Sequence record: MN850606.1
From: Escherichia phage tuinn
DNA: 50,505 nt
Strand: one strand, 5' to 3'
The notes under the pieces were generated by a model. The model saw only the letters and a program-made list of their open reading frames with translations, made no database searches and had not been told where the DNA came from. Shown piece by piece: positions 13,852-46,344 of this stretch (position 1 is its first letter; every line of letters begins with the position of its first letter). A program made the position numbers and the translations under genes.

Positions 13852-14781
13852 TTATAGCAGTGATTCAGGCTTGTAGAGTTTTCTTTCTACGCCCTGTTTA
13901 AAATTATCGTTAACAGGCATCATTATGTCAAGCCCTCTTTCCTCTGCCGCGATTATCACATCACGATCATCTTTCCGGCAGACTACGCGCATTCTTCTTT
14001 CTCCTTTATATCTATGCGCAACCATTTCAAGATTTGAAGGAGTAAAACAGGCCCACACCTCTTGACCAGTTGATAAATGAACATGCTGAGAATCAACCCA
14101 ATCAAGGCACAAATAGATCGTCTTATCTGTACTACCTGTTTTAACAACAGATCCGCGCGTGTAGTCGCGAGCTAAAAACCAATCCTTTCCATCCTCATCA
14201 ATGAAAAGCACGTTACACATTTCATCATCCAGCCCGTCATCATGCACCAGGTGACAAGGTAGCGCGTGAATGTATCGACCATCCTTGACGCCGCAATCAT
14301 AATGACAATCTTCCGGCGGATATATCCCCTCATAAACGCTTAAAGGTGTGCGATCGAATTTTAATGTTTTTTCCATCACTTTTTCGCAACATTCATGACT
14401 TGCCTGTTTCCCGAACGAGTAACCAGAAGAACGCGAAGCGCGTTTGTTTGCTCTGATCCTGTAATCTTGTGGCACTTTTCCGAGGAAGCGGCCCAAAATG
14501 TTGATGGCCTCGCTGTAAGGTTCGCCAGTTAATTTCATTAACCAACCGATCCCCGTGTCGTTGCCGCACACGTTGCAGATCGCGCCTCCGTCGCCCTCTT
14601 CATTTAGCTTATCAGTCCATCTAAAACGATCCTTACCGCCGCAGTGTGGGCAAGGTTGATGCTTTTTGTTGAAAACATCGCTATGCAGCCCGCAAATGCT
14701 TTGTAGTGCTTCACGCCATAACCCCTTCATATATGGCAAAACATCTTCTTTCTGATAGGTCATAAAGTTTTCAGTATTCAT
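13852..14781 (-). CDS. DNA primase with zinc-ribbon
   Basis: CPHCGG..CNVCG zinc-binding motif; start 14781 with GAGG RBS. Confidence 0.65.
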   Translation of the reverse strand: MNTENFMTYQKEDVLPYMKGLWREALQSICGLHSDVFNKKHQPCPHCGGKDRFRWTDKLNEEGDGGAICNVCGNDTGIGWLMKLTGEPYSEAINILGRFLGKVPQDYRIRANKRASRSSGYSFGKQASHECCEKVMEKTLKFDRTPLSVYEGIYPPEDCHYDCGVKDGRYIHALPCHLVHDDGLDDEMCNVLFIDEDGKDWFLARDYTRGSVVKTGSTDKTIYLCLDWVDSQHVHLSTGQEVWACFTPSNLEMVAHRYKGERRMRVVCRKDDRDVIIAAEERGLDIMMPVNDNFKQGVERKLYKPESLL

Positions 14782-14793
14782 GGCAAACCTCAA

Positions 14794-14829
14794 TAAAAAA
14801 GCCCAGCAAATATTATCATTTCGCTGGGC
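14794..14829 (-). terminator. rho-independent terminator after HTH gene
   Basis: GCCCAGC..GCTGGGC hairpin with U-run on minus strand. Confidence 0.55.
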
Positions 14830-14836
14830 CTTATCA

Positions 14837-15313
14837 TTAGCTATTCGTGCTGTTATCACCTTTGTAGAATCTTCCGCCTGGTTCGTAGTCTGAATTTTTG
14901 ACTACGCGCAACATTTCGTATTTGTCGCAACGGGTAGTAAGAGGCTTGCCGTTAGAATCAAACCGCAGATCTGGACGACAAAACGAGGCGCGGTATCCTT
15001 TGCATCCATTATATTTGTAGTCGTTATGCACCTTTTGTGCTCCAGCGGCTGAAATCATACCACGCTTTCGCCATTGGTTAACGACTTGCTGAGATACGCG
15101 CAGACGTCGAGCCATAGCAGGAACACCGCCGTAATACTCGATCAGAATGTCAAGGCGAGATTTCAGGCTTGCTTTTACCTCATCTCGCAGGATAAGAAAT
15201 CCGGTTCGGTGTTTTCGTGGTTTTTTGTCTTTACCTCGTCGCGTTCCGTTGTTACCGTTAATAGTGCGCTTGTCGATCTCACCCGTAGATACTGCAATTC
15301 GTGCATCTTTCAT
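14837..15313 (-). CDS. helix-turn-helix DNA-binding protein, candidate transcription regulator
   Basis: HTH-like ARRLRVSQQVVNQWRKRG; basic N-terminus; GAGGTG RBS. Confidence 0.5.
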   Translation of the reverse strand: MKDARIAVSTGEIDKRTINGNNGTRRGKDKKPRKHRTGFLILRDEVKASLKSRLDILIEYYGGVPAMARRLRVSQQVVNQWRKRGMISAAGAQKVHNDYKYNGCKGYRASFCRPDLRFDSNGKPLTTRCDKYEMLRVVKNSDYEPGGRFYKGDNSTNS

Positions 15314-15400: not shown

Positions 15401-17398
15401 ATGATTCCAAATATCGAAAAACAAATATCAGCATTAGGCGAGGCAGTAATAAAAAGCATCCAAGAGCGATTCACGGTTGGCAATATAGTGCCTTATCCTT
15501 ATCAGTGCGTTGCGTATGCAGAGATCGCAAAGCGCATGAAAAACTATGAGCATCCTTTCTTTGTTAAGGCTTCTGTATCGGCTGGCAAAACATTGATGTT
15601 TGCGATGGTTGCGGCGCAATGCCGCAAAATGGGATTGAAAATGATGGTCCTTGCTCGCCAGGCTGAAATTGTTGATCAGGATTCGGAGGAGATCAGCAAT
15701 CTTGGCGTGCCAAACTCAATCTATTGCGCCGGACTGAAAACAAAAAGCGCATACTTTCCGATCGTAGTCGGTTCTGAGGGCACTGTAGTAAACGGATTGT
15801 TTAAGTCGTTAGGTGATTATGTTCCGCACGTTATCGGTATTGATGAATGTCACCAGGTGGATTGGGAGGATCTCGCGGACGCGATAGAAAATAATGAATC
15901 TTACCAGCAGATGACCACTAAGAAGGATTTGCCAGTACTGATTGGAGAAGAACAGCAATTTGATTCCAATGGCGATCCAATGTTCGGAACAGGGCGCACA
16001 CAGTACACCGTAATAATCATGGAAATGATGCGCAGGTGTCGCGAGGCATACGGGCACGAATTGCGAATATTCGGCATGACTGGATCTGAGTTTCGCGGCG
16101 TGGTTCCAATACTGGTTGAAGATAAGAACAAAAAGGGATTCTGGCGTGAGCAAGTAACTAACATAGACACAAACTACTTAATCAAATTCGGTTCGGTAGT
16201 GCCAACAAATTTCGGCGACGTCGGCGACCTGGGTTATGACCTTTCAGAGTTCGAGGCCAGTAGCGAGGACGGCGTTTCAGACTTTGACGCTAAAACATTG
16301 CGCAAGATGGAAGAAAAGATCCATCAAGACGCAACAATGACACAGAAAATCATGGCTAAAGTCCATGAGATATGCAAAGACAGGAACGGAGTTTTAGTTA
16401 CATGCGCAGGGGAAAGGCACTGCAAGGAGGCCGCCGCCGCACTGCCGCCAGGCGTTGAATACAGGATCATAACTGGCAAGACTGGAGATAATCAGCGTAA
16501 AGAGTGGCTGAGGGAGGCATACGAGGGAAAAGTAAAATACATCTTCCAGGTACAGGCGCTTACCACTGGCGTTAACGTTCCGTTTTTGGATACTTCGGTA
16601 ATACTGAGAAAGATAGGATCTCTAACATTGCTCATCCAGCTTTTGGGGCGCGGTATGCGACTGCTTAAGCAATGGCACATTGAGCAGGGATTCAAGAAAA
16701 AAGATCATCTTGTATTGGATTTTGCAGGTACTATGGATGAGTTAGGTGATTTGTATTTCGATCCAATCCTTGAGCAAGCGCAACTCCAAAAGAGATTTAC
16801 AAACGGGAAAGAGCCTAAGACTTGTCCGATATGTGGAACGCTAAACAGCTTTTACGCTCGCCGATGTATGCACGTAGACGATAACGGGAAACGATGCGAG
16901 CATTTTTGGACTTACAGAATTTGCGAGGACCAGGTAGATCCGAGAACAAAAAAGATAATCAAGCGCGGTTGCGGAACAAAAAACGACGTAGTGGCGAGAG
17001 TTTGCCGTTGTTGCGATATTTCTCTTGTCGATCCTAACGAGAAGTTAAGCGGTAAGCACTACACCAAAAACGATTGGTGCAACGTTAAATATTTCCGCGT
17101 TGATATGACGAAAAACCAGAAAGGAATTGTTTTTTGCTATGAGCTTGAGGCCAACGGCGACACGTTCAAGGCATACGAAAGATTTTTCCCTGAGTCAGAA
17201 AGCAACATTTGCCGGACGATATGGAGAAAAATAGCATTGCAGCACATACCGGATCGCAAGATTGCTGGTATGGTGGCGAGCTATAGAAATGCGCGTAAAA
17301 TAATGTCATACGCTCATCACATCATGCCGCCTGTACGCGTAACGCATCGCAAAAACGGCAAAGGTGAGGATAACATTGCAAAACGGGAGTTTGTTTAA
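15401..17398 (+). CDS. superfamily-2 DNA helicase with C-terminal zinc fingers
   Basis: Walker A SAGKT, Walker B IDECHQ, several CxxC pairs. Confidence 0.75.
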   Translation: MIPNIEKQISALGEAVIKSIQERFTVGNIVPYPYQCVAYAEIAKRMKNYEHPFFVKASVSAGKTLMFAMVAAQCRKMGLKMMVLARQAEIVDQDSEEISNLGVPNSIYCAGLKTKSAYFPIVVGSEGTVVNGLFKSLGDYVPHVIGIDECHQVDWEDLADAIENNESYQQMTTKKDLPVLIGEEQQFDSNGDPMFGTGRTQYTVIIMEMMRRCREAYGHELRIFGMTGSEFRGVVPILVEDKNKKGFWREQVTNIDTNYLIKFGSVVPTNFGDVGDLGYDLSEFEASSEDGVSDFDAKTLRKMEEKIHQDATMTQKIMAKVHEICKDRNGVLVTCAGERHCKEAAAALPPGVEYRIITGKTGDNQRKEWLREAYEGKVKYIFQVQALTTGVNVPFLDTSVILRKIGSLTLLIQLLGRGMRLLKQWHIEQGFKKKDHLVLDFAGTMDELGDLYFDPILEQAQLQKRFTNGKEPKTCPICGTLNSFYARRCMHVDDNGKRCEHFWTYRICEDQVDPRTKKIIKRGCGTKNDVVARVCRCCDISLVDPNEKLSGKHYTKNDWCNVKYFRVDMTKNQKGIVFCYELEANGDTFKAYERFFPESESNICRTIWRKIALQHIPDRKIAGMVASYRNARKIMSYAHHIMPPVRVTHRKNGKGEDNIAKREFV

Positions 17399-21433: not shown

Positions 21434-21825
21434 TGAAGAATTTTTTACTTACACCAATCGCAATGGCGGTGATCTTGTCTGGATGTTCAAGCGTTACGCC
21501 ACTGACCGGATTAATCGGCAGTAAGCCGGAAATCACAGCACAGGCTGGATCGGAGAACGTGAAGCAGACAGTTGGCATTACAGCAAAGCAGGACGCCAGC
21601 ACAAAACAGGAAACCACAATAAAGGAATCTGCGGTTGACAAGGTGGACACGTCCAGCAAGAAGGATTTCACAACATCAACCATTCAGGCCAATACCATCA
21701 AGGCAGACAAAATTCATGTCGTGCAGGGTAATAACGGTAGATGGTACGATCCAGTAATCATATGCGTGGTTGTGTTAATTGTGCTGATTTGTCTTTACTG
21801 GAGAGAAAAGAAAAAGGAGGCTTAA
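21430..21825 (+). CDS. unimolecular spanin
   Basis: Lipobox ILSGC at N-terminus plus C-terminal transmembrane segment; ATGA overlap with endolysin. Confidence 0.6.
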
Positions 21826-21840
21826 TGCCTCCTTTATTTT
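21813..21840. terminator. bidirectional terminator
   Basis: AGGAGGC-TTAAT-GCCTCCT hairpin plus T-run. Confidence 0.6.
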
Positions 21841-22064
21841 TATGCGTCGGGCCACATATGAGTTTCGTTTGTTGGCTTGTTCGATTCGTCGTACTGCCTT
21901 ACTTCAATGCTGCAAGTGTCGCCGTACATTTCTGCAATCTTGCGCTCATTTTCAACCGCCGATTGCTCACTCCAGCCTGAATCCTTATCGTAAACTGTCG
22001 GGATTTCAGAAGAAGATCCATTTGCATGATTGTATACGCGAACTACTAAAAACTTGCTGGACAT
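21840..22064 (-). CDS. hypothetical protein
   Basis: ATG 22064 with AAGGA RBS; downstream of promoter-like cassette. Confidence 0.4.
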   Translation of the reverse strand: MSSKFLVVRVYNHANGSSSEIPTVYDKDSGWSEQSAVENERKIAEMYGDTCSIEVRQYDESNKPTNETHMWPDA

Positions 22065-22126
22065 AATTTTTCCTTTTTGGTTGGTTCGTTTCGATGAAAC
22101 AAATATACCCGACACAAGGTCGGGAG

Positions 22127-22146
22127 TTTTAACAAAAAATGCTATT
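22127..22146 (-). promoter_or_regulatory. conserved motif copy
   Basis: TTTTAACAAAAAATGCTATT on +; hairpin, TATATT and CATCGAAACGAAC box follow on minus strand. Confidence 0.6.
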
Positions 22147-22336
22147 CCATACGCTTTACTGTAACCAATAACACACCATCATCATTGCATAAAACGTGTT
22201 CATTGGTGCTAAAAGCGCGCATATCTGAATAAAGCAGCGTAAGTAACGCATGAATAAGATCCTCATGTGATATTGAATTTACGGCGCAGTGCTTCAAGAT
22301 CTTGTCTATTAGCTTTCGCCTGGAACAATTCATCAT
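22142..22336 (-). CDS. hypothetical protein (start uncertain)
   Basis: ORF whose TAG stop lies in the motif; overlaps upstream gene. Confidence 0.3.
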   Translation of the reverse strand: MMNCSRRKLIDKILKHCAVNSISHEDLIHALLTLLYSDMRAFSTNEHVLCNDDGVLLVTVKRME

Positions 22337-22658
22337 CGCCCATCTCCCCTATTCTAGCCATATCCCTGATCCAGTCGTTGCGCATACCATCCAGGCTATA
22401 CAATTCGAATCCGAAAGGCCGCTTTGACGATCCTTTGGACCAGTATTTTCCGCAGACTCCATCTATATAACCAGCCGTCATCATTCTTGCGCAAAATTCC
22501 TTAGATGCAAGGCTGGCGAACATTCTCGGCGTAAGTCCGGCGGCCCGTGCGAGCCGCTCACATTCTCTATGCTGATAGATAAATTTGGCTATGTGCTGCC
22601 TGTTAAACCAATCGTATGACTCACACCATTTATACAGATCAAGCAAAAACATAATCAT
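22263..22658 (-). CDS. hypothetical protein
   Basis: 131-aa ORF overlapping stop of upstream gene. Confidence 0.4.
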   Translation of the reverse strand: MIMFLLDLYKWCESYDWFNRQHIAKFIYQHRECERLARAAGLTPRMFASLASKEFCARMMTAGYIDGVCGKYWSKGSSKRPFGFELYSLDGMRNDWIRDMARIGEMGDDELFQAKANRQDLEALRRKFNIT

Positions 22659-24235
22659 CCCAGCAGTATTGGATTGACAAAAATAACACCATTAATCACA
22701 CAAACATAATTTCTTTCTTCCAGCATTGGCAGTAAGTGCCCTTCTATCCTTTTCATTACGCCAGCCTGACCAACGAAAGGTTTTACCTTTCTCGCTGATT
22801 CGTACAGGGCGCGGATATTCAGAATCCCTTTATTAGCCTTGCCGTGCCTCGTGATCAATTCAATCAATTTACCCATCTCAGCATCATCACCAGCATAACC
22901 AGAAGCATTTGCGGCGCTAATGTATGTTTTGCTCAATTCCTGAAACATGATCAACGCCTCTTGCATTGTTTCCACGTCGATCTCTTTCGACTTCTGCGGG
23001 TATCCGGCAGGATTAAACCAGTTACGGATAACATGCAGGACGGAAGCAAGCCTGATCACCTGTTTATCCATTTTACCCAGCGCACCGCGTAACATTGTAT
23101 GAGAATACTTTCCTCCGTCTGCAAGATGCGGTTCCATATCCTGGCGAGCAATGTTGAGCACTCGCATAGCTGAACGGCTTATTTTCAGCGATATATTTGA
23201 TTCGCTCATGATGTTATGCACCAATTGATAATATTGGGCTTTCAATTCAGAATCCACCGCCTCATAGGTAGAATCACCATTTTCATCAATGAATGAGCGA
23301 CGGCCTAAGAATGATTCCTCTCGGACCAACAAAAAACGCTCACTAACACCGATGCCTCGCGATCCAGCGTCCATGATTCCGCTTATCGTTTCATCCTGGG
23401 CTATGACGCTCATACATCCAAGCGCGCGAAAACTCATATTATTGTCAGCATTAGCACGGGCAATTGATACGTGACCATTATCCCACGCCTTAAGCACTAA
23501 CTCACTGTTAGTCTTCCTTTCGCTATTTGCATAGGTCAAGCCTAACAGACTGTTAATACTTGTTGCTTCATCAGATATTACGGCAAAGTTACCTTGCTTG
23601 TTGTTGATTTTCGCCAAGCCTTCTGGAGTTGTATCTGAAACAGGAAAAGTTATATCACACATTTTTTCCAGCTTTTCCTCCAGATCCTCTTTTTCCTGGT
23701 ATAGAGATTCCATATCAGCGCCGGATCTTTCGCTTTTCATCTCCTTTGCAAGACCTGCCAGCTTTGCCTGTATTTTCTTTCTTTCCTTGCGGCGTTGCTC
23801 GTTGATCTTCTCAACTTCCGCAATCATCGGAGCAATAGCCATGCTGTTGATCGCAGATTTACCAGTTGACGGCGGCTGGCTTGTAACGACGTAAAGCGCA
23901 GTCGGCTGATCGGTTCCGTGATAGTCAACCGTAAAGCGTCCAAGCATAGCGGCAGAAATGCAGCCGATAAAGTGCATGTAAGCAGATGATTCAGGGAATT
24001 GAACGGATCGCGCAATGCTGCGTGATAACTTGCCGACAACATCAATATCATTACCAAGAGAAATAACGGGGTAGCGATCGTGACCGCTATTCACATCCTT
24101 TACGTCGCCCCAAAAGCTGGACGACTGGCGATAGCCGTTAGCCTGAATTGATACGCGAACTGGCGAAAGGTTCTGGCTTTCAGCCATAGCGATTATTTGT
24201 TGTGGAGTTAATTTGTTCGTTTCTAATGAAAACAT
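22655..24235 (-). CDS. P-loop NTPase of unknown function
   Basis: Deviant Walker A SQPPSTGKS, Walker B-like AVISDEAT, charged coiled-coil insert; AGGAG RBS; family not identifiable by eye. Confidence 0.55.
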   Translation of the reverse strand: MFSLETNKLTPQQIIAMAESQNLSPVRVSIQANGYRQSSSFWGDVKDVNSGHDRYPVISLGNDIDVVGKLSRSIARSVQFPESSAYMHFIGCISAAMLGRFTVDYHGTDQPTALYVVTSQPPSTGKSAINSMAIAPMIAEVEKINEQRRKERKKIQAKLAGLAKEMKSERSGADMESLYQEKEDLEEKLEKMCDITFPVSDTTPEGLAKINNKQGNFAVISDEATSINSLLGLTYANSERKTNSELVLKAWDNGHVSIARANADNNMSFRALGCMSVIAQDETISGIMDAGSRGIGVSERFLLVREESFLGRRSFIDENGDSTYEAVDSELKAQYYQLVHNIMSESNISLKISRSAMRVLNIARQDMEPHLADGGKYSHTMLRGALGKMDKQVIRLASVLHVIRNWFNPAGYPQKSKEIDVETMQEALIMFQELSKTYISAANASGYAGDDAEMGKLIELITRHGKANKGILNIRALYESARKVKPFVGQAGVMKRIEGHLLPMLEERNYVCVINGVIFVNPILLG

Positions 24236-24288
24236 TCGTTAGCTTCTCCTTTGTGGGCCGTAAATTTTAACGGCCCAATACTACCCCG

Positions 24289-24309
24289 TTTTGTCAAAAA
24301 GTGCTATTT
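24289..24309 (-). promoter_or_regulatory. conserved motif copy upstream of P-loop gene
   Basis: TTTTGTCAAAAAGTGCTATTT on +; hairpin GGGCCGTTAAAATTTACGGCCC follows. Confidence 0.6.
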
Positions 24310-24525
24310 GATCCGCTCTATTGCAACCAGAAGTCGATCAGGCTGGCGGTCGCTGTAGCATTCTCCTGTAATCCCATCCTTAAACGTAAAGTAAAGCGCT
24401 TTATGATATGAAAAACCAATCAGCCAACCTACCGCCGTTTTTTTGATGGGCCTGACTATATCGCCAGGCTTGAAAGTCTTTGTGGTAGAATGCGTTACTT
24501 TGTAACGGTTTTCACTGTTTATCAC
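24304..24525 (-). CDS. hypothetical protein
   Basis: 73-aa ORF coupled to upstream gene. Confidence 0.35.
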   Translation of the reverse strand: MINSENRYKVTHSTTKTFKPGDIVRPIKKTAVGWLIGFSYHKALYFTFKDGITGECYSDRQPDRLLVAIERIK

Positions 24526-24908
24526 AGATATTTGCCCTCAAACAGATAACAGCCGCCAGCAGAGAATCCGACCTCTTCACGGTACAGGTTCCAGCGGTCG
24601 CCGCACTCATCAAAAACATAACCCGCAACGCTTCCAAGCGGTCGCCCTTTCTCGATCTGGTATCGCTTGCCCTGCTTAAAGTGCTTTTTGCACGGCATGT
24701 TATGATCTACAAACGTGCAAAGAACGGTCTTTGTGTTAATGGCGCGGTAATCATCTCGGTTTGCTGGAAGCCAACGGCTACCCTTAACAAGCGTCTTAAC
24801 CTGGAACTCTTCCACCTCGATCACATCATTACTTCCTGCAATCTTCTGATAAACCGTTTTAAAACGGCCTTTCATCAATACGTTGGTTTCATTACAGATA
24901 ACATTCAT
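24522..24908 (-). CDS. hypothetical protein
   Basis: 128-aa ORF, AAGGAG RBS. Confidence 0.4.
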   Translation of the reverse strand: MNVICNETNVLMKGRFKTVYQKIAGSNDVIEVEEFQVKTLVKGSRWLPANRDDYRAINTKTVLCTFVDHNMPCKKHFKQGKRYQIEKGRPLGSVAGYVFDECGDRWNLYREEVGFSAGGCYLFEGKYL

Positions 24909-24962
24909 GATTAGATCTCCTTTGTTTGTTCGATGTGATTATGCCAGGTTTTTACACCTGGC

Positions 24963-24984
24963 TTTTAACAAAAAGTGCTATTTT
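24963..24984 (-). promoter_or_regulatory. conserved motif copy
   Basis: TTTTAACAAAAAGTGCTATTTT incl. stop of methylase gene; hairpin and ATAATC follow. Confidence 0.6.
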
Positions 24985-25688
24985 GAGTTTGACTCAAAGA
25001 CTGCGCGAGCAAAGCCGCGCGGAGTGAGGGAGCGGATCATCTTTGTGCGCGATGACTTGCCGCCAGTTTTGGCCCAGCCTGGATTATCTTTGTCTTCCTC
25101 TTTCGGCAGGATTAAAGCGCGTGGAGGAATAACAAAGCCGTTGCCAGTCCAGAGGCACGTTTTCTTAAAATAGCGATCACGCGCCGGAATAATATCAGGG
25201 AAGTCGGGATGTTTATCATCTTCCGGCAGATAGCCAGCGTAATCGCACGGATGGAACGTATAATCAGGCTTACGCCATAACGTTGACAACTTGCCAACCG
25301 GATTTTCGATCATGTAAGGAACACCGAAATAATCAGCTATATCAGCCGCGATTCTGCAAGTGTCGGCGGCCTCATCCTGGAACGATGGATTCTCAAGGCG
25401 TTTTTTGGCCCAATGGCGAGATCCGCTATTTGCAAGGTCGGTGCACGGCGGAAATGCCATAATAAAATCAGGATTGCCCCACTCATTATTGATTGCCTTA
25501 ACATAAAAAGCATCGTCAATCCAGACGTTAACGTATTCGATATTCTCATGCTGTATGCGCACTGACTGGTAATCACCGTGATCGCCACCGTCAGCATTAA
25601 AGCAAATGCACTTATAGCCATTATCAGCCCAATCTTTAACGGCTTTACCAGATCCATCAAATAGGGAGAATATTAAACCTTTATACAT
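24978..25688 (-). CDS. compact DNA (cytosine-5) methyltransferase
   Basis: Motif I FSLFDGSG, motif IV FPPC, motif VI ENPVG, C-terminal RSLTPRGFARAVF; only ~236 aa. Confidence 0.65.
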   Translation of the reverse strand: MYKGLIFSLFDGSGKAVKDWADNGYKCICFNADGGDHGDYQSVRIQHENIEYVNVWIDDAFYVKAINNEWGNPDFIMAFPPCTDLANSGSRHWAKKRLENPSFQDEAADTCRIAADIADYFGVPYMIENPVGKLSTLWRKPDYTFHPCDYAGYLPEDDKHPDFPDIIPARDRYFKKTCLWTGNGFVIPPRALILPKEEDKDNPGWAKTGGKSSRTKMIRSLTPRGFARAVFESNSK

Positions 25689-45911: not shown

Positions 45912-46344
45912 TTATAAGATCAGGGAATTTCACGGTGATATAAGCAGGTGGATTGATTCAGTAAGCAGCGGCCTTGTTGATTGCGTTGAAATGTTCGCGA
46001 CAAACGTCCACGAGGATCTTGTAAAGCGTTCGCCAGTTGATACGGGCCGATATAAAGCTAACTGGCAGGTAACAGCAAACAAGCCGCCGCTATATGCTCT
46101 CAATCAATACGATCGCGATGGTAGTAAAACCATTGCAGAAGGCAAGCGAGCAATATATGCAATCATGCTGGGCGGTGGCGCGGTGCGGTCAATCTATTTT
46201 TCAAACATGCTTATTTACGCCAATGCGCTTGAATACGGGCATTCAAAACAAGCGCCGTCCGGCGTGCTGGGAATCGTGGCGGTAAAGCTGCGATCCTATA
46301 TGACTAAGGCAATAAAGGATTCGAGGGCAAAAAATGCACTATGA
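45901..46344 (+). CDS. tail component (HK97 gp10-like)
   Basis: AAGGAGG RBS; DTGRYKANW motif region. Confidence 0.45.
   Translation: MADNYKIREFHGDISRWIDSVSSGLVDCVEMFATNVHEDLVKRSPVDTGRYKANWQVTANKPPLYALNQYDRDGSKTIAEGKRAIYAIMLGGGAVRSIYFSNMLIYANALEYGHSKQAPSGVLGIVAVKLRSYMTKAIKDSRAKNAL

What the first reader, a model, noticed from the sequence alone, without database searches (positions are those of the whole stretch)
22655..24235. 526-aa P-loop protein of unknown function, the largest early gene
Deviant Walker A (SQPPSTGKS), Walker B-like (AVISDEAT) and a highly charged coiled-coil insert between them; transcribed from its own motif promoter (24289..24309). It does not resemble the helicase, primase or terminase already present. 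Large early ATPases in lytic phages are often host-takeover or anti-defence factors, or replication initiators.
Basis: inference. Interest (0 to 1): 0.5.

Follow-up and report, generated by a model that had tools for sequence, protein, structure and literature searches.

The report
T1-like phage MCM-like replicative helicase
The "unknown" 526-aa ATPase is the conserved DUF3987-family (MCM-like AAA+) DNA helicase of T1-like coliphages, most likely the phage's own replication-fork helicase, so the finding is real but ordinary and already annotated.

The parts
22655..24235 (-). DUF3987-family AAA+ (MCM-like) helicase gene, 526 aa; ortholog of phage T1 ST9
23855..23881 (-). Walker A / P-loop, residues 119-127 SQPPSTGKS (family signature QPxxxGKS; Gln replaces the first Gly)
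   Evidence: Invariant in A1. K126 invariant in 76 distant members. Pattern holds across 135 representatives.
23663..23860 (-). Antiparallel charged helical hairpin, residues 126-191. It extends the helix that follows the P-loop; the outgoing helix is basic and the return helix acidic.
   Evidence: AF2 secondary structure H126-166 and H172-191, block pLDDT 83-96. Charge counts. Walker A to Walker B distance is 54-110 aa across the family, mostly 90-100.
23561..23584 (-). Walker B, residues 218-225 AVISDEAT (family form hhhS-x-E; E223 invariant, D222 replaceable by Ala or Ser)
   Evidence: Strand E217-221 in the model. Conservation.
23426..23473 (-). Pre-sensor-1 beta-hairpin, residues 255-270, with invariant R260; the predicted DNA-contacting channel loop
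   Evidence: Strands E255-258 and E267-270 lie just before beta-4 in the model. R260 is invariant in A1 and A4. The channel-loop role is inferred by analogy with MCM.
23390..23419 (-). Beta-4 plus sensor-1 motif, residues 273-282 (GCMSVIAQDE; Q280 invariant)
   Evidence: Strand E273-279. Q280 invariant in 76 members.
23318..23350 (-). Arginine-finger motif GVSERFLLVRE, residues 296-306 (G296, R300, E306 invariant); resembles the MCM 'SRF' motif
   Evidence: Conservation. Strand E301-305 follows R300. The resemblance to MCM 'SRF' rests on established knowledge of MCM motifs and was not superposed residue by residue.
23021..23251 (-). Helical lid domain, residues 329-405, with R383 invariant in A1 and K388 invariant in A1 and A4 (sensor-2 candidates)
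   Evidence: Helices H329-343, H354-371, H380-405. Conservation.
22676..22888 (-). C-terminal winged-helix domain, residues 450-520
24289..24308 (-).
   Evidence: 16 copies against 0.02 expected. Already described in TLS as aaATAGCACnnnTTGnTAAAA with function unresolved. A copy lies at the same distance upstream of T1 ST9.
24264..24269 (-). -10-like hexamer TAAAAT, exactly 22 nt after the motif's TTGACA; predicted transcription start near 24257
   Evidence: About 13 of 16 motif copies have TAnnnT or CATAAT at 21-22 nt. Sequence. Promoter function is inferred.
24255..24276 (-). 7-bp GC-rich hairpin (GGGCCGT / ACGGCCC, 8-nt loop containing the -10-like hexamer) with no T-run after it, so not an intrinsic terminator
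   Evidence: Read directly from the sequence. Not listed by the terminator scan.
22263..22658 (-). Translationally coupled downstream ORF (131 aa, ATGA overlap), ortholog of T1 ST10: winged-helix-like N-terminal domain plus disordered tail with an invariant D-x-ELF motif; candidate helicase accessory protein
13852..14859 (-). Stand-alone DNA primase with a T7-gp4/P4-type zinc ribbon and no helicase domain; presumed partner of the helicase (deposited start in phage tonn corresponds to about 14780)
   Evidence: PF08273 E 4.8e-15. phrog_510 'DNA primase', matching only positions 6-316 of 667. Its homolog lies 3 bp downstream of the DUF3987 gene in phage XCL1123.
15401..17817 (+). SF2 helicase (ResIII + Helicase_C) plus VRR-NUC nuclease; the 'helicase already present'. 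It is not a ring helicase and is co-conserved with the DUF3987 gene and primase.
   Evidence: Pfam. 35% identical ortholog next to the primase in XCL1123. No similarity to the DUF3987 protein.

Best explanation
The gene encodes the phage's own replication-fork helicase, a member of the DUF3987 family of AAA+ ATPases in the same structural clade as MCM. Shown here: full-length family membership; an MCM-like AAA+ core ending in a winged helix; invariance of residues that map to the predicted Walker A Lys (K126), Walker B Glu (E223), beta-hairpin Arg (R260), sensor-1 (Q280), Arg finger (R300) and a lid Lys (K388); exclusive fusion or adjacency to primase and DnaB-N modules in relatives; and core-gene status with conserved synteny in T1-like phages. 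Inferred: the protein forms a ring (probably a hexamer) around single-stranded DNA. ATP is hydrolysed at subunit interfaces, with R300 acting in trans. The R260 hairpins in the channel pull the DNA through, unwinding the fork, probably 5'->3' as measured for the family member AgaPH. In that arrangement it would play the role DnaB plays for the host. It would work with the phage's separate T7-gp4-type zinc-ribbon primase and with host DNA polymerase III, since these phages encode no DNA polymerase. The C-terminal winged helix, the N-terminal helical region and the charged helical hairpin are likely DNA- or partner-binding surfaces. Which surface binds what is unknown.
Against: No experiment exists on any T1-like ortholog; ring formation, polarity and partners are all extrapolated. 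In this genome the gene is about 8 kb from the primase, among small early genes. The fold clade also contains non-replicative ATPases (RavA, Mg-chelatase BchI, ComM, BrxL). The model shows no MCM-type helix-2 insert and no OB/Zn N-terminal domain, and the Pfam MCM model is not matched. The Walker B Asp is not conserved in the family. AgaPH is a distant relative with a PriCT domain that this protein lacks.
Confidence: 0.78

Rival explanations
1. Initiator-helicase. The protein both recognises the phage origin (through its C-terminal winged helix and/or N-terminal helical region, perhaps with the coupled 131-aa winged-helix protein) and loads itself as the fork helicase, as papillomavirus E1, SaPI Rep and P4 alpha do. 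This extends the best explanation rather than excluding it.
Against: No iterons or tandem repeats in or next to the gene. The TLS authors found no origin-like repeats anywhere in that genome. Winged helices in MCM-like helicases are not by themselves origin binders. T1-like replication may start by recombination or transcription instead.
Confidence: 0.3
2. Recombination or branch-migration motor rather than the fork helicase. It would act with the Erf/exonuclease VIII/SSB module on recombination intermediates or concatemers, as ComM does in transformation.
Against: The closest structural matches are MCM by a wide margin. Family fusions are to primases and DnaB_N, not to recombinases. The gene abuts the primase gene in XCL1123. 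The SF2 helicase plus VRR-NUC pair is the more natural fork-remodelling or recombination motor.
Confidence: 0.08
3. AAA+ loader or remodeller that recruits or hijacks the host DnaB helicase (a lambda P or DnaC analogue) instead of unwinding DNA itself.
For: The phage encodes no DnaB-type helicase. AAA+ helicase loaders exist (established knowledge). Some relatives carry a DnaB N-terminal domain.
Against: The fold belongs to the MCM clade, with a pre-sensor-1 hairpin bearing an invariant Arg. A family member unwinds DNA directly. In the DnaB_N fusions the DUF3987 module sits where DnaB's own motor domain would be, which argues for replacement of DnaB rather than loading of it.
Confidence: 0.06
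4. Host take-over or anti-defence ATPase.
For: It is located among small early genes of unknown function. A large charged insert could be a protein-interaction arm.
Against: No PADLOC match. It is a core gene conserved at 35-100% identity in 925 phages, with invariant ATPase-motif residues and conserved synteny, unlike fast-evolving accessory genes. All domain fusions are replisome modules. The insert is a family trait that is also present in primase-fused members.
Confidence: 0.03

Closest known systems
Phage T1 ST9 and the other Drexlerviridae 'DNA helicase' orthologs (e.g. tonn gp43, swan01, AAS23 gp49)
   Same: Direct orthologs: 100% protein identity to swan01, 99.8% DNA identity to tonn, 58% to T1 ST9. 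Same length, same position at the end of the leftward cluster, followed by the ST10-like ORF and convergent with the lysis cassette.
   Different: Nothing of substance. T1 has an HNH endonuclease gene inserted directly upstream. None of these proteins has been studied experimentally as far as the searched literature shows.
AgaPH, the PriCT-DUF3987 helicase of a Seonamhaeicola mobile element (PMC11724360)
   Same: Same Pfam domain, conserved Walker A and B, a small C-terminal domain, and genetic linkage to a primase. Shown to be an oligomeric, ATP/dATP-dependent 5'->3' DNA helicase.
   Different: AgaPH has an N-terminal PriCT domain and partners an AEP primase-polymerase. The phage protein has a different helical N-terminus and coexists with a zinc-ribbon (T7 gp4/P4-type) primase and no phage polymerase. 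Sequence relatedness between the two was not measured here.
Archaeal/eukaryotic MCM (SF6 replicative helicase, Pfam PF00493)
   Different: About 13% identity and no PF00493 hit. No OB-fold/zinc N-terminal domain and no helix-2 insert visible; instead a roughly 65-residue helical hairpin extends helix alpha-1. The Walker A starts with Gln. The one polarity measured in the family is 5'->3', opposite to MCM's 3'->5' (established knowledge).
T7 gp4 / bacterial DnaB (SF4 RecA-fold replicative helicases)
   Same: Presumed same job: a 5'->3' ring helicase on the lagging-strand template working with a zinc-ribbon/Toprim primase. Some DUF3987 proteins even carry the DnaB N-terminal domain.
   Different: Unrelated motor fold (AAA+ rather than RecA-like). 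The helicase and primase are separate polypeptides encoded about 8 kb apart.
MCM-like helicases of staphylococcal elements (SCCmec Cch; SaPI primase-helicase/Rep) and phage N4 dns
   Different: Cch and SaPI Rep belong to other Pfam families and match less well than MCM. N4 dns carries a fused primase domain.

Membership tests
DUF3987 (Pfam PF13148; PHROG 2373) | Score above the curated Pfam gathering threshold over the whole domain | tested here: met
   152.9 bits against a cutoff of 27; residues 81-430 cover profile positions 3-350 of 364. PHROG 2373 E 2.6e-244 over the full length.
DUF3987 (Pfam PF13148; PHROG 2373) | Conserved Walker A (QPxxxGKS) and Walker B (hhhS-x-E) motifs | tested here: met
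   K126 and E223 are invariant in 76 members at 22-37% identity. The motif forms are tabulated across 135 representatives.
DUF3987 (Pfam PF13148; PHROG 2373) | [quoted passage not shown] 2016) | tested here: met
DUF3987 (Pfam PF13148; PHROG 2373) | Fusion to, or adjacency with, an AEP or DnaG-type primase | tested here: met
   Met for relatives: fusions and a primase 3 bp downstream in XCL1123. In this window a homologous primase is present but about 8 kb away.
DUF3987 (Pfam PF13148; PHROG 2373) | ATP-dependent DNA unwinding, as shown for AgaPH | not testable with these tools
   Needs purified protein. Only the AgaPH data exist.
MCM / SF6 helicases (Pfam PF00493) | Sequence match to the MCM AAA+ model | tested here: not met
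   No PF00493 hit at E<=1. PDB sequence and profile searches find no MCM. The relationship is visible only at fold level.
MCM / SF6 helicases (Pfam PF00493) | AAA+ core with a pre-sensor-1 beta-hairpin, sensor 1 and a trans arginine finger | tested here: met
MCM / SF6 helicases (Pfam PF00493) | Helix-2 insert hairpin | tested here: not met
   In the model helix alpha-2 (204-214) is uninterrupted. The extra element is a helical hairpin on alpha-1 (126-191).
MCM / SF6 helicases (Pfam PF00493) | N-terminal OB-fold/zinc DNA-binding domain | tested here: not met
   Residues 1-97 are all-helical in the model, and no such Pfam domain is found.
MCM / SF6 helicases (Pfam PF00493) | Hexameric ring; 3'->5' translocation | not testable with these tools
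   Only monomer prediction is available. The one measured family member is oligomeric and moves 5'->3'.
DnaB / T7 gp4 (SF4) replicative helicases | RecA-like DnaB_C motor domain | tested here: not met
   No DnaB_C hit. The fold is AAA+.
Known anti-phage defence-system or counter-defence components | Match to a PADLOC model, or accessory-gene behaviour | tested here: not met
   No PADLOC hit at E<=0.1. The gene behaves as a core gene of the lineage.

The most novel reading that the evidence does not exclude
The protein may be a self-sufficient initiator-helicase that frees T1-like phages from host DnaA, DnaB, DnaC and DnaG. It would recognise and melt the still-unknown phage origin through its winged helix, possibly with the translationally coupled winged-helix/acidic-tail protein (T1 ST10 ortholog). 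It would load itself as an AAA+ ring running 5'->3', and use the family-specific charged helical hairpin as the docking arm for the separate primase or for host Pol III/SSB. That would be an MCM-clade motor operating inside an otherwise bacterial-type replisome.
Probability: 0.2. Interest if true: 0.5.

Novelty: already known. Interest (0 to 1): 0.18.

Why it matters
It corrects the record for this window. The largest gene of the leftward cluster is a housekeeping replication protein, not an orphan ATPase or a host take-over factor, so it should not be chased as a counter-defence candidate. There is modest wider value. T1-like phages are among the commonest coliphages and common laboratory and fermentation contaminants, yet their replication machinery has had little molecular study. 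The literature is also inconsistent about which of their two "helicases" drives the fork. The TLS paper appears to treat the SF2 protein as the helicase, while the original TLS record labels this gene 'yfiJ: putative ATPase'. My PDB searches found no solved structure for DUF3987. The family is large (6387 clusters at 50% identity) and is reported to translocate with the opposite polarity to MCM. A T1-like ortholog would therefore be a convenient model, but that is an opportunity, not a discovery made here.

Tried and rejected
1. PDB sequence searches with the protein and with a 19-sequence profile gave only chance hits, such as the augmin coiled coil. The relationship to MCM shows only at fold level.
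2. NCBIfam gave no match, and PADLOC gave none.
3. A canonical sigma-70 promoter upstream of the gene is not there. TTGACA is present, but no -10 lies at 15-19 nt. The MAFFT alignment of motif copies suggested a 14-nt deletion in this copy. Register counting showed that to be an artefact: the 22-nt spacing to a -10-like hexamer is kept.
4. I suspected a conserved small partner gene upstream of the helicase, because a ~72-aa ORF precedes it in three phages. There is no significant similarity among them, so I dropped the idea.
5. Origin-like iterons or tandem repeats in or near the gene: none. GATC density is ordinary, 12 in 1.58 kb against 6.1 per kb genome-wide. No Rfam family at E<=0.1 in 21500..25500.
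7. Literature searches for T1 DNA-synthesis genes and host dnaB/dnaG dependence returned nothing usable. The Kazlauskas 2016 supplements are not held. A 2026 Nature paper on Avs sensors mentions Drexlerviridae and helicases, but it concerns the capsid protein and RecA-fold helicases, not this protein.
8. I considered the invariant VIAQDE (278-282) as an alternative Walker B and rejected it. It ends beta-4 after the pre-sensor-1 hairpin, which fits sensor 1, whereas AVISDE ends beta-3.
Full report
**Observation**

It has an AGGAG ribosome-binding site 10 nt before the ATG. SQPPSTGKS is residues 119-127 and AVISDEAT is residues 218-225. The segment between them is very charged: 44% K/R/D/E over residues 126-191, against 21% elsewhere. 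The protein shows no pairwise similarity to the window's other helicase or to its primase.

**What the window is**

The gene is 99.8% identical in DNA to Escherichia phage tonn (Drexlerviridae, Tempevirinae, Warwickvirus). The protein is 100% identical to that of phage swan01. Depending on the record, the gene is deposited as "DNA helicase", "putative helicase" or "hypothetical protein".

**Family**

- Pfam places residues 81-430 in DUF3987 (PF13148, E 1.7e-44, 152.9 bits against a cutoff of 27). The match is one uninterrupted stretch covering 348 of 364 profile positions.
- PHROG 2373 ("DNA helicase") matches end to end at E 2.6e-244.
- NCBIfam, PADLOC and sequence searches of the PDB give nothing.
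- The family is large. A profile search of 1.84 billion representatives finds 6387 clusters at E<=0.001.

**Structure**

An AlphaFold2 model built on 19 orthologs is confident (mean pLDDT 87.6, pTM 0.85). In order along the chain it shows:

| Residues | Element |
|---|---|
| 1-97 | Helical N-terminal region |
| 115-119 | Strand beta-1, followed by the P-loop |
| 126-166, 172-191 | Long helix after the P-loop that turns back on itself: the "coiled-coil insert", an antiparallel hairpin with a basic outgoing arm and an acidic return arm |
| 204-214 | Helix alpha-2 |
| 217-221 | Strand beta-3, ending in S-D-E (Walker B) |
| 255-270 | Beta-hairpin before beta-4 |
| 273-279 | Strand beta-4, ending at Q280 |
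| 300-305 | R300, then strand beta-5 (301-305) |
| 329-405 | Helical lid |
| 450-520 | C-terminal winged helix |

The protein is therefore an AAA+ ATPase of the MCM structural clade, but not an MCM in the strict sense. There is no PF00493 match, no OB/zinc N-terminal domain, and no helix-2 insert in the model.

**Conservation**

In 19 orthologs (36-88% identity) the Walker A (Q120-S127), S221, E223, R260, I278-E282, E299, R300, R383, K388 and others are invariant. In 76 family representatives only 22-37% identical to the query, just eight positions remain invariant: K126, E223, R260, Q280, G296, R300, E306 and K388. On my mapping of the motifs onto the model, six of them are the Walker A lysine, Walker B glutamate, beta-hairpin arginine, sensor 1, arginine finger (in a "SERF" motif resembling MCM's "SRF") and a lid lysine. 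This is the pattern expected of an active, oligomeric, DNA-translocating AAA+ motor.

The Walker B aspartate is not conserved and is often Ala or Ser. The Walker A to Walker B distance is 54-110 residues across 135 representatives, mostly 90-100. The helical hairpin is therefore a family trait of variable length, not a peculiarity of this phage.

**Context and fusions**

All recognisable extra domains in family members are replisome modules: Prim-Pol, DnaG CHC2 zinc ribbon, BT4734-like AEP, PriCT_2, NrS-1 polymerase helix bundle and the DnaB N-terminal domain.

The window has three other relevant genes:
- A stand-alone primase with the T7-gp4/P4-type zinc ribbon (13852..14859). It matches only the N-terminal half of its PHROG profile, so it has no helicase domain.
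- An SF2 helicase (ResIII + Helicase_C, 15401..17398).
- A VRR-NUC nuclease.

The deposited annotations of tonn and T1 list no DNA polymerase, as the TLS paper also notes for TLS and T1. This leaves the DUF3987 protein as the only ring-helicase candidate.

In Pseudoalteromonas phage XCL1123 (34% identity) the order is DUF3987, then primase after a 3-bp gap, then SF2 helicase, exonuclease VIII and SSB, all in one operon. That primase and SF2 helicase are homologs of the window's (E 2e-9; 35% identity, E 7e-118). Phage Bas79 has the same set clustered.

tblastn finds the gene in 925 phage records, 911 of them full length. Nearly all are 43-53 kb T1-like genomes. In T1 itself the ortholog is ST9 (58% identity). 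It is followed by ST10 and is convergent with the lysis cassette, exactly as in the window.

**Literature**

- Kazlauskas et al. 2016 classified phage DUF3987 proteins as divergent SF6 (MCM-related) helicases. They noted a C-terminal wHTH and frequent fusion or adjacency to AEP or DnaG primases, predicted them to be replicative helicases, and pointed out that N4 dns, which is essential for replication, is one (PMC4889955).
- A 2025 study purified a PriCT-DUF3987 protein (AgaPH). It is oligomeric, binds its primase-polymerase, and unwinds 5'-tailed and forked DNA with ATP or dATP. Walker A and B mutants are dead (PMC11724360).
- The AAS23 paper already calls the 67.6%-identical ortholog a "putative helicase containing a DUF3987 domain".
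- The TLS reannotation describes "a primase (Gp56) and a helicase (Gp58)" in opposite orientation. This fits the SF2 gene, which is my inference. The original TLS record labels the DUF3987 ortholog "yfiJ: putative ATPase".

No experimental work on a T1-like ortholog turned up.

**Mechanism**

The most likely reading (confidence about 0.78) is that this is the phage's fork helicase: a ring-forming AAA+ motor working with the separate primase and host Pol III. Family membership, fold, the conserved motif residues, context and distribution are shown here. Ring formation, 5'->3' polarity, the trans arginine finger, the channel hairpin and the roles of the winged helix and helical hairpin are inferred. 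Rival readings:

| Reading | Confidence | Main point |
|---|---|---|
| Initiator-helicase (compatible extension) | 0.3 | No separate initiator or loader recognisable, but no iterons either |
| Recombination or branch-migration motor | 0.08 | ComM is a structural neighbour, but fusions are to primases |
| DnaB loader | 0.06 | Fold and AgaPH activity argue for direct unwinding |
| Host take-over or anti-defence | 0.03 | Core-gene behaviour, no PADLOC hit |

**Promoter claim**

The element at 24289..24308 is one of 16 copies of AATAGCACTTTTTGTTAAAA in the window (0.02 expected). The copies are oriented with local transcription. About 13 of the 16 have a -10-like hexamer exactly 21-22 nt after the motif's TTGTTA. 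That puts TTGTTA about 5 nt upstream of a normal -35 position.

The copy in front of this gene is the only one with a perfect TTGACA. Its -10 candidate TAAAAT (24269..24264) lies in the loop of a 7-bp hairpin that has no T-tract after it. T1 has a copy at the same distance (55-74 nt) upstream of ST9, inside the 3' end of an inserted HNH gene.

The repeat has already been described in TLS, T1, Rtp and Rogue1, with its function left open: stoperator, enhancer site or UP-like element. "Own promoter" is therefore plausible but unproven. Read-through from upstream promoters is also likely, because no terminator separates the genes.

**Other points**

The helicase stop overlaps the start of a 131-aa ORF (ATGA). 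That ORF is conserved with T1 ST10 and restricted to T1-like contigs. It is modelled as a winged-helix-like domain plus a disordered tail with an invariant D-x-ELF motif. It is a candidate accessory factor but remains untested. Nothing else is hidden in the gene: no tandem repeats, Rfam matches or unusual GATC density.

**Verdict**

This is an already annotated member of a described helicase family, so novelty is "already known" and interest is low (0.18). The remaining value is that T1-like replication and the DUF3987 family still lack direct experimental and structural characterisation.

Noticed in passing
window 7721, 13762, 15324, 17813, 18883, 22127, 24289, 24963, 26881, 28186, 29548, 30765, 34901, 39085, 43711, 47467 (20-nt sites): There are 16 copies of AATAGCACTTTTTGTTAAAA (0.02 expected), oriented with local transcription. 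About 13 have a -10-like hexamer (TAnnnT or CATAAT) exactly 21-22 nt downstream, so the motif's TTGTTA sits about 5 nt upstream of a normal -35. This looks like an activator-box or UP-like promoter class. The repeat itself is published for TLS, T1 and Rtp with its function unresolved; the passages of the TLS paper that I read do not mention the fixed spacing to a -10.
   Followed up: partly
window spacers after the motif copies, e.g. 22108..22124, 24255..24276, 24942..24959: Many of the 22-nt spacers between the motif and the -10-like hexamer contain a short GC-rich inverted repeat (cccgaccttgtgtcggg, ccaggtgtaaaaacctgg, gcgcgatggattgcgc, gggccgt..acggccc). Several downstream leaders share CATCGAAACGAAC. 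This may be a regulator-binding or RNA-structure element.
   Followed up: no
window 22263..22658 (-): A 131-aa ORF is translationally coupled (ATGA) to the helicase gene. It is the ortholog of T1 ST10 (53% identity) and is confined to T1-like phages. It has a winged-helix-like N-terminal domain and a disordered tail with invariant D108, E110, L111 and F112. The deposited name 'YdbL' looks like a legacy label. It is a possible helicase accessory or adaptor protein.
   Followed up: partly
window 13852..14859 (-): The primase matches only positions 6-316 of the 667-position PHROG 510 profile and has the T7-gp4/P4-type zinc ribbon (PF08273). It looks like the primase half of a primase-helicase, with the helicase function supplied in trans.
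   Followed up: partly
L004 (phage T1) 46085..46624 and 46140..46159: In T1 an HNH homing-endonuclease gene (ST8) is inserted directly upstream of the helicase gene ST9. The conserved motif copy now lies inside its 3' end, at the same distance from the helicase start as in the window.
   Followed up: partly
phage database hits, e.g. MG065643.1: 21 records named 'Campylobacter phage' (host C. jejuni) carry this gene at about 88% protein identity, within ~50-kb T1-like genomes. This is unexpected for a Campylobacter host and suggests mislabelled or contaminating coliphages.
   Followed up: no
window 23561..23584 (Walker B) and family alignments A1 and A4: The Walker B aspartate (D222) is not conserved in the family: it is Ala in 4 of 19 orthologs and often Ala or Ser in distant members. 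The preceding Ser and the following Glu are conserved. This is an unusual Walker B form (S-x-E).
   Followed up: partly
window 21813..21835: A perfect 9-bp-stem hairpin with T-runs on both strands sits between the rightward lysis cassette and the leftward helicase cluster. It looks like a bidirectional intrinsic terminator.
   Followed up: no
P0181 (representative): Some family members fuse the DnaB N-terminal (primase-binding) domain to a DUF3987 AAA+ module, in the position of DnaB's RecA-type motor. This is a natural domain swap, consistent with DUF3987 acting as a DnaB analogue.
   Followed up: partly
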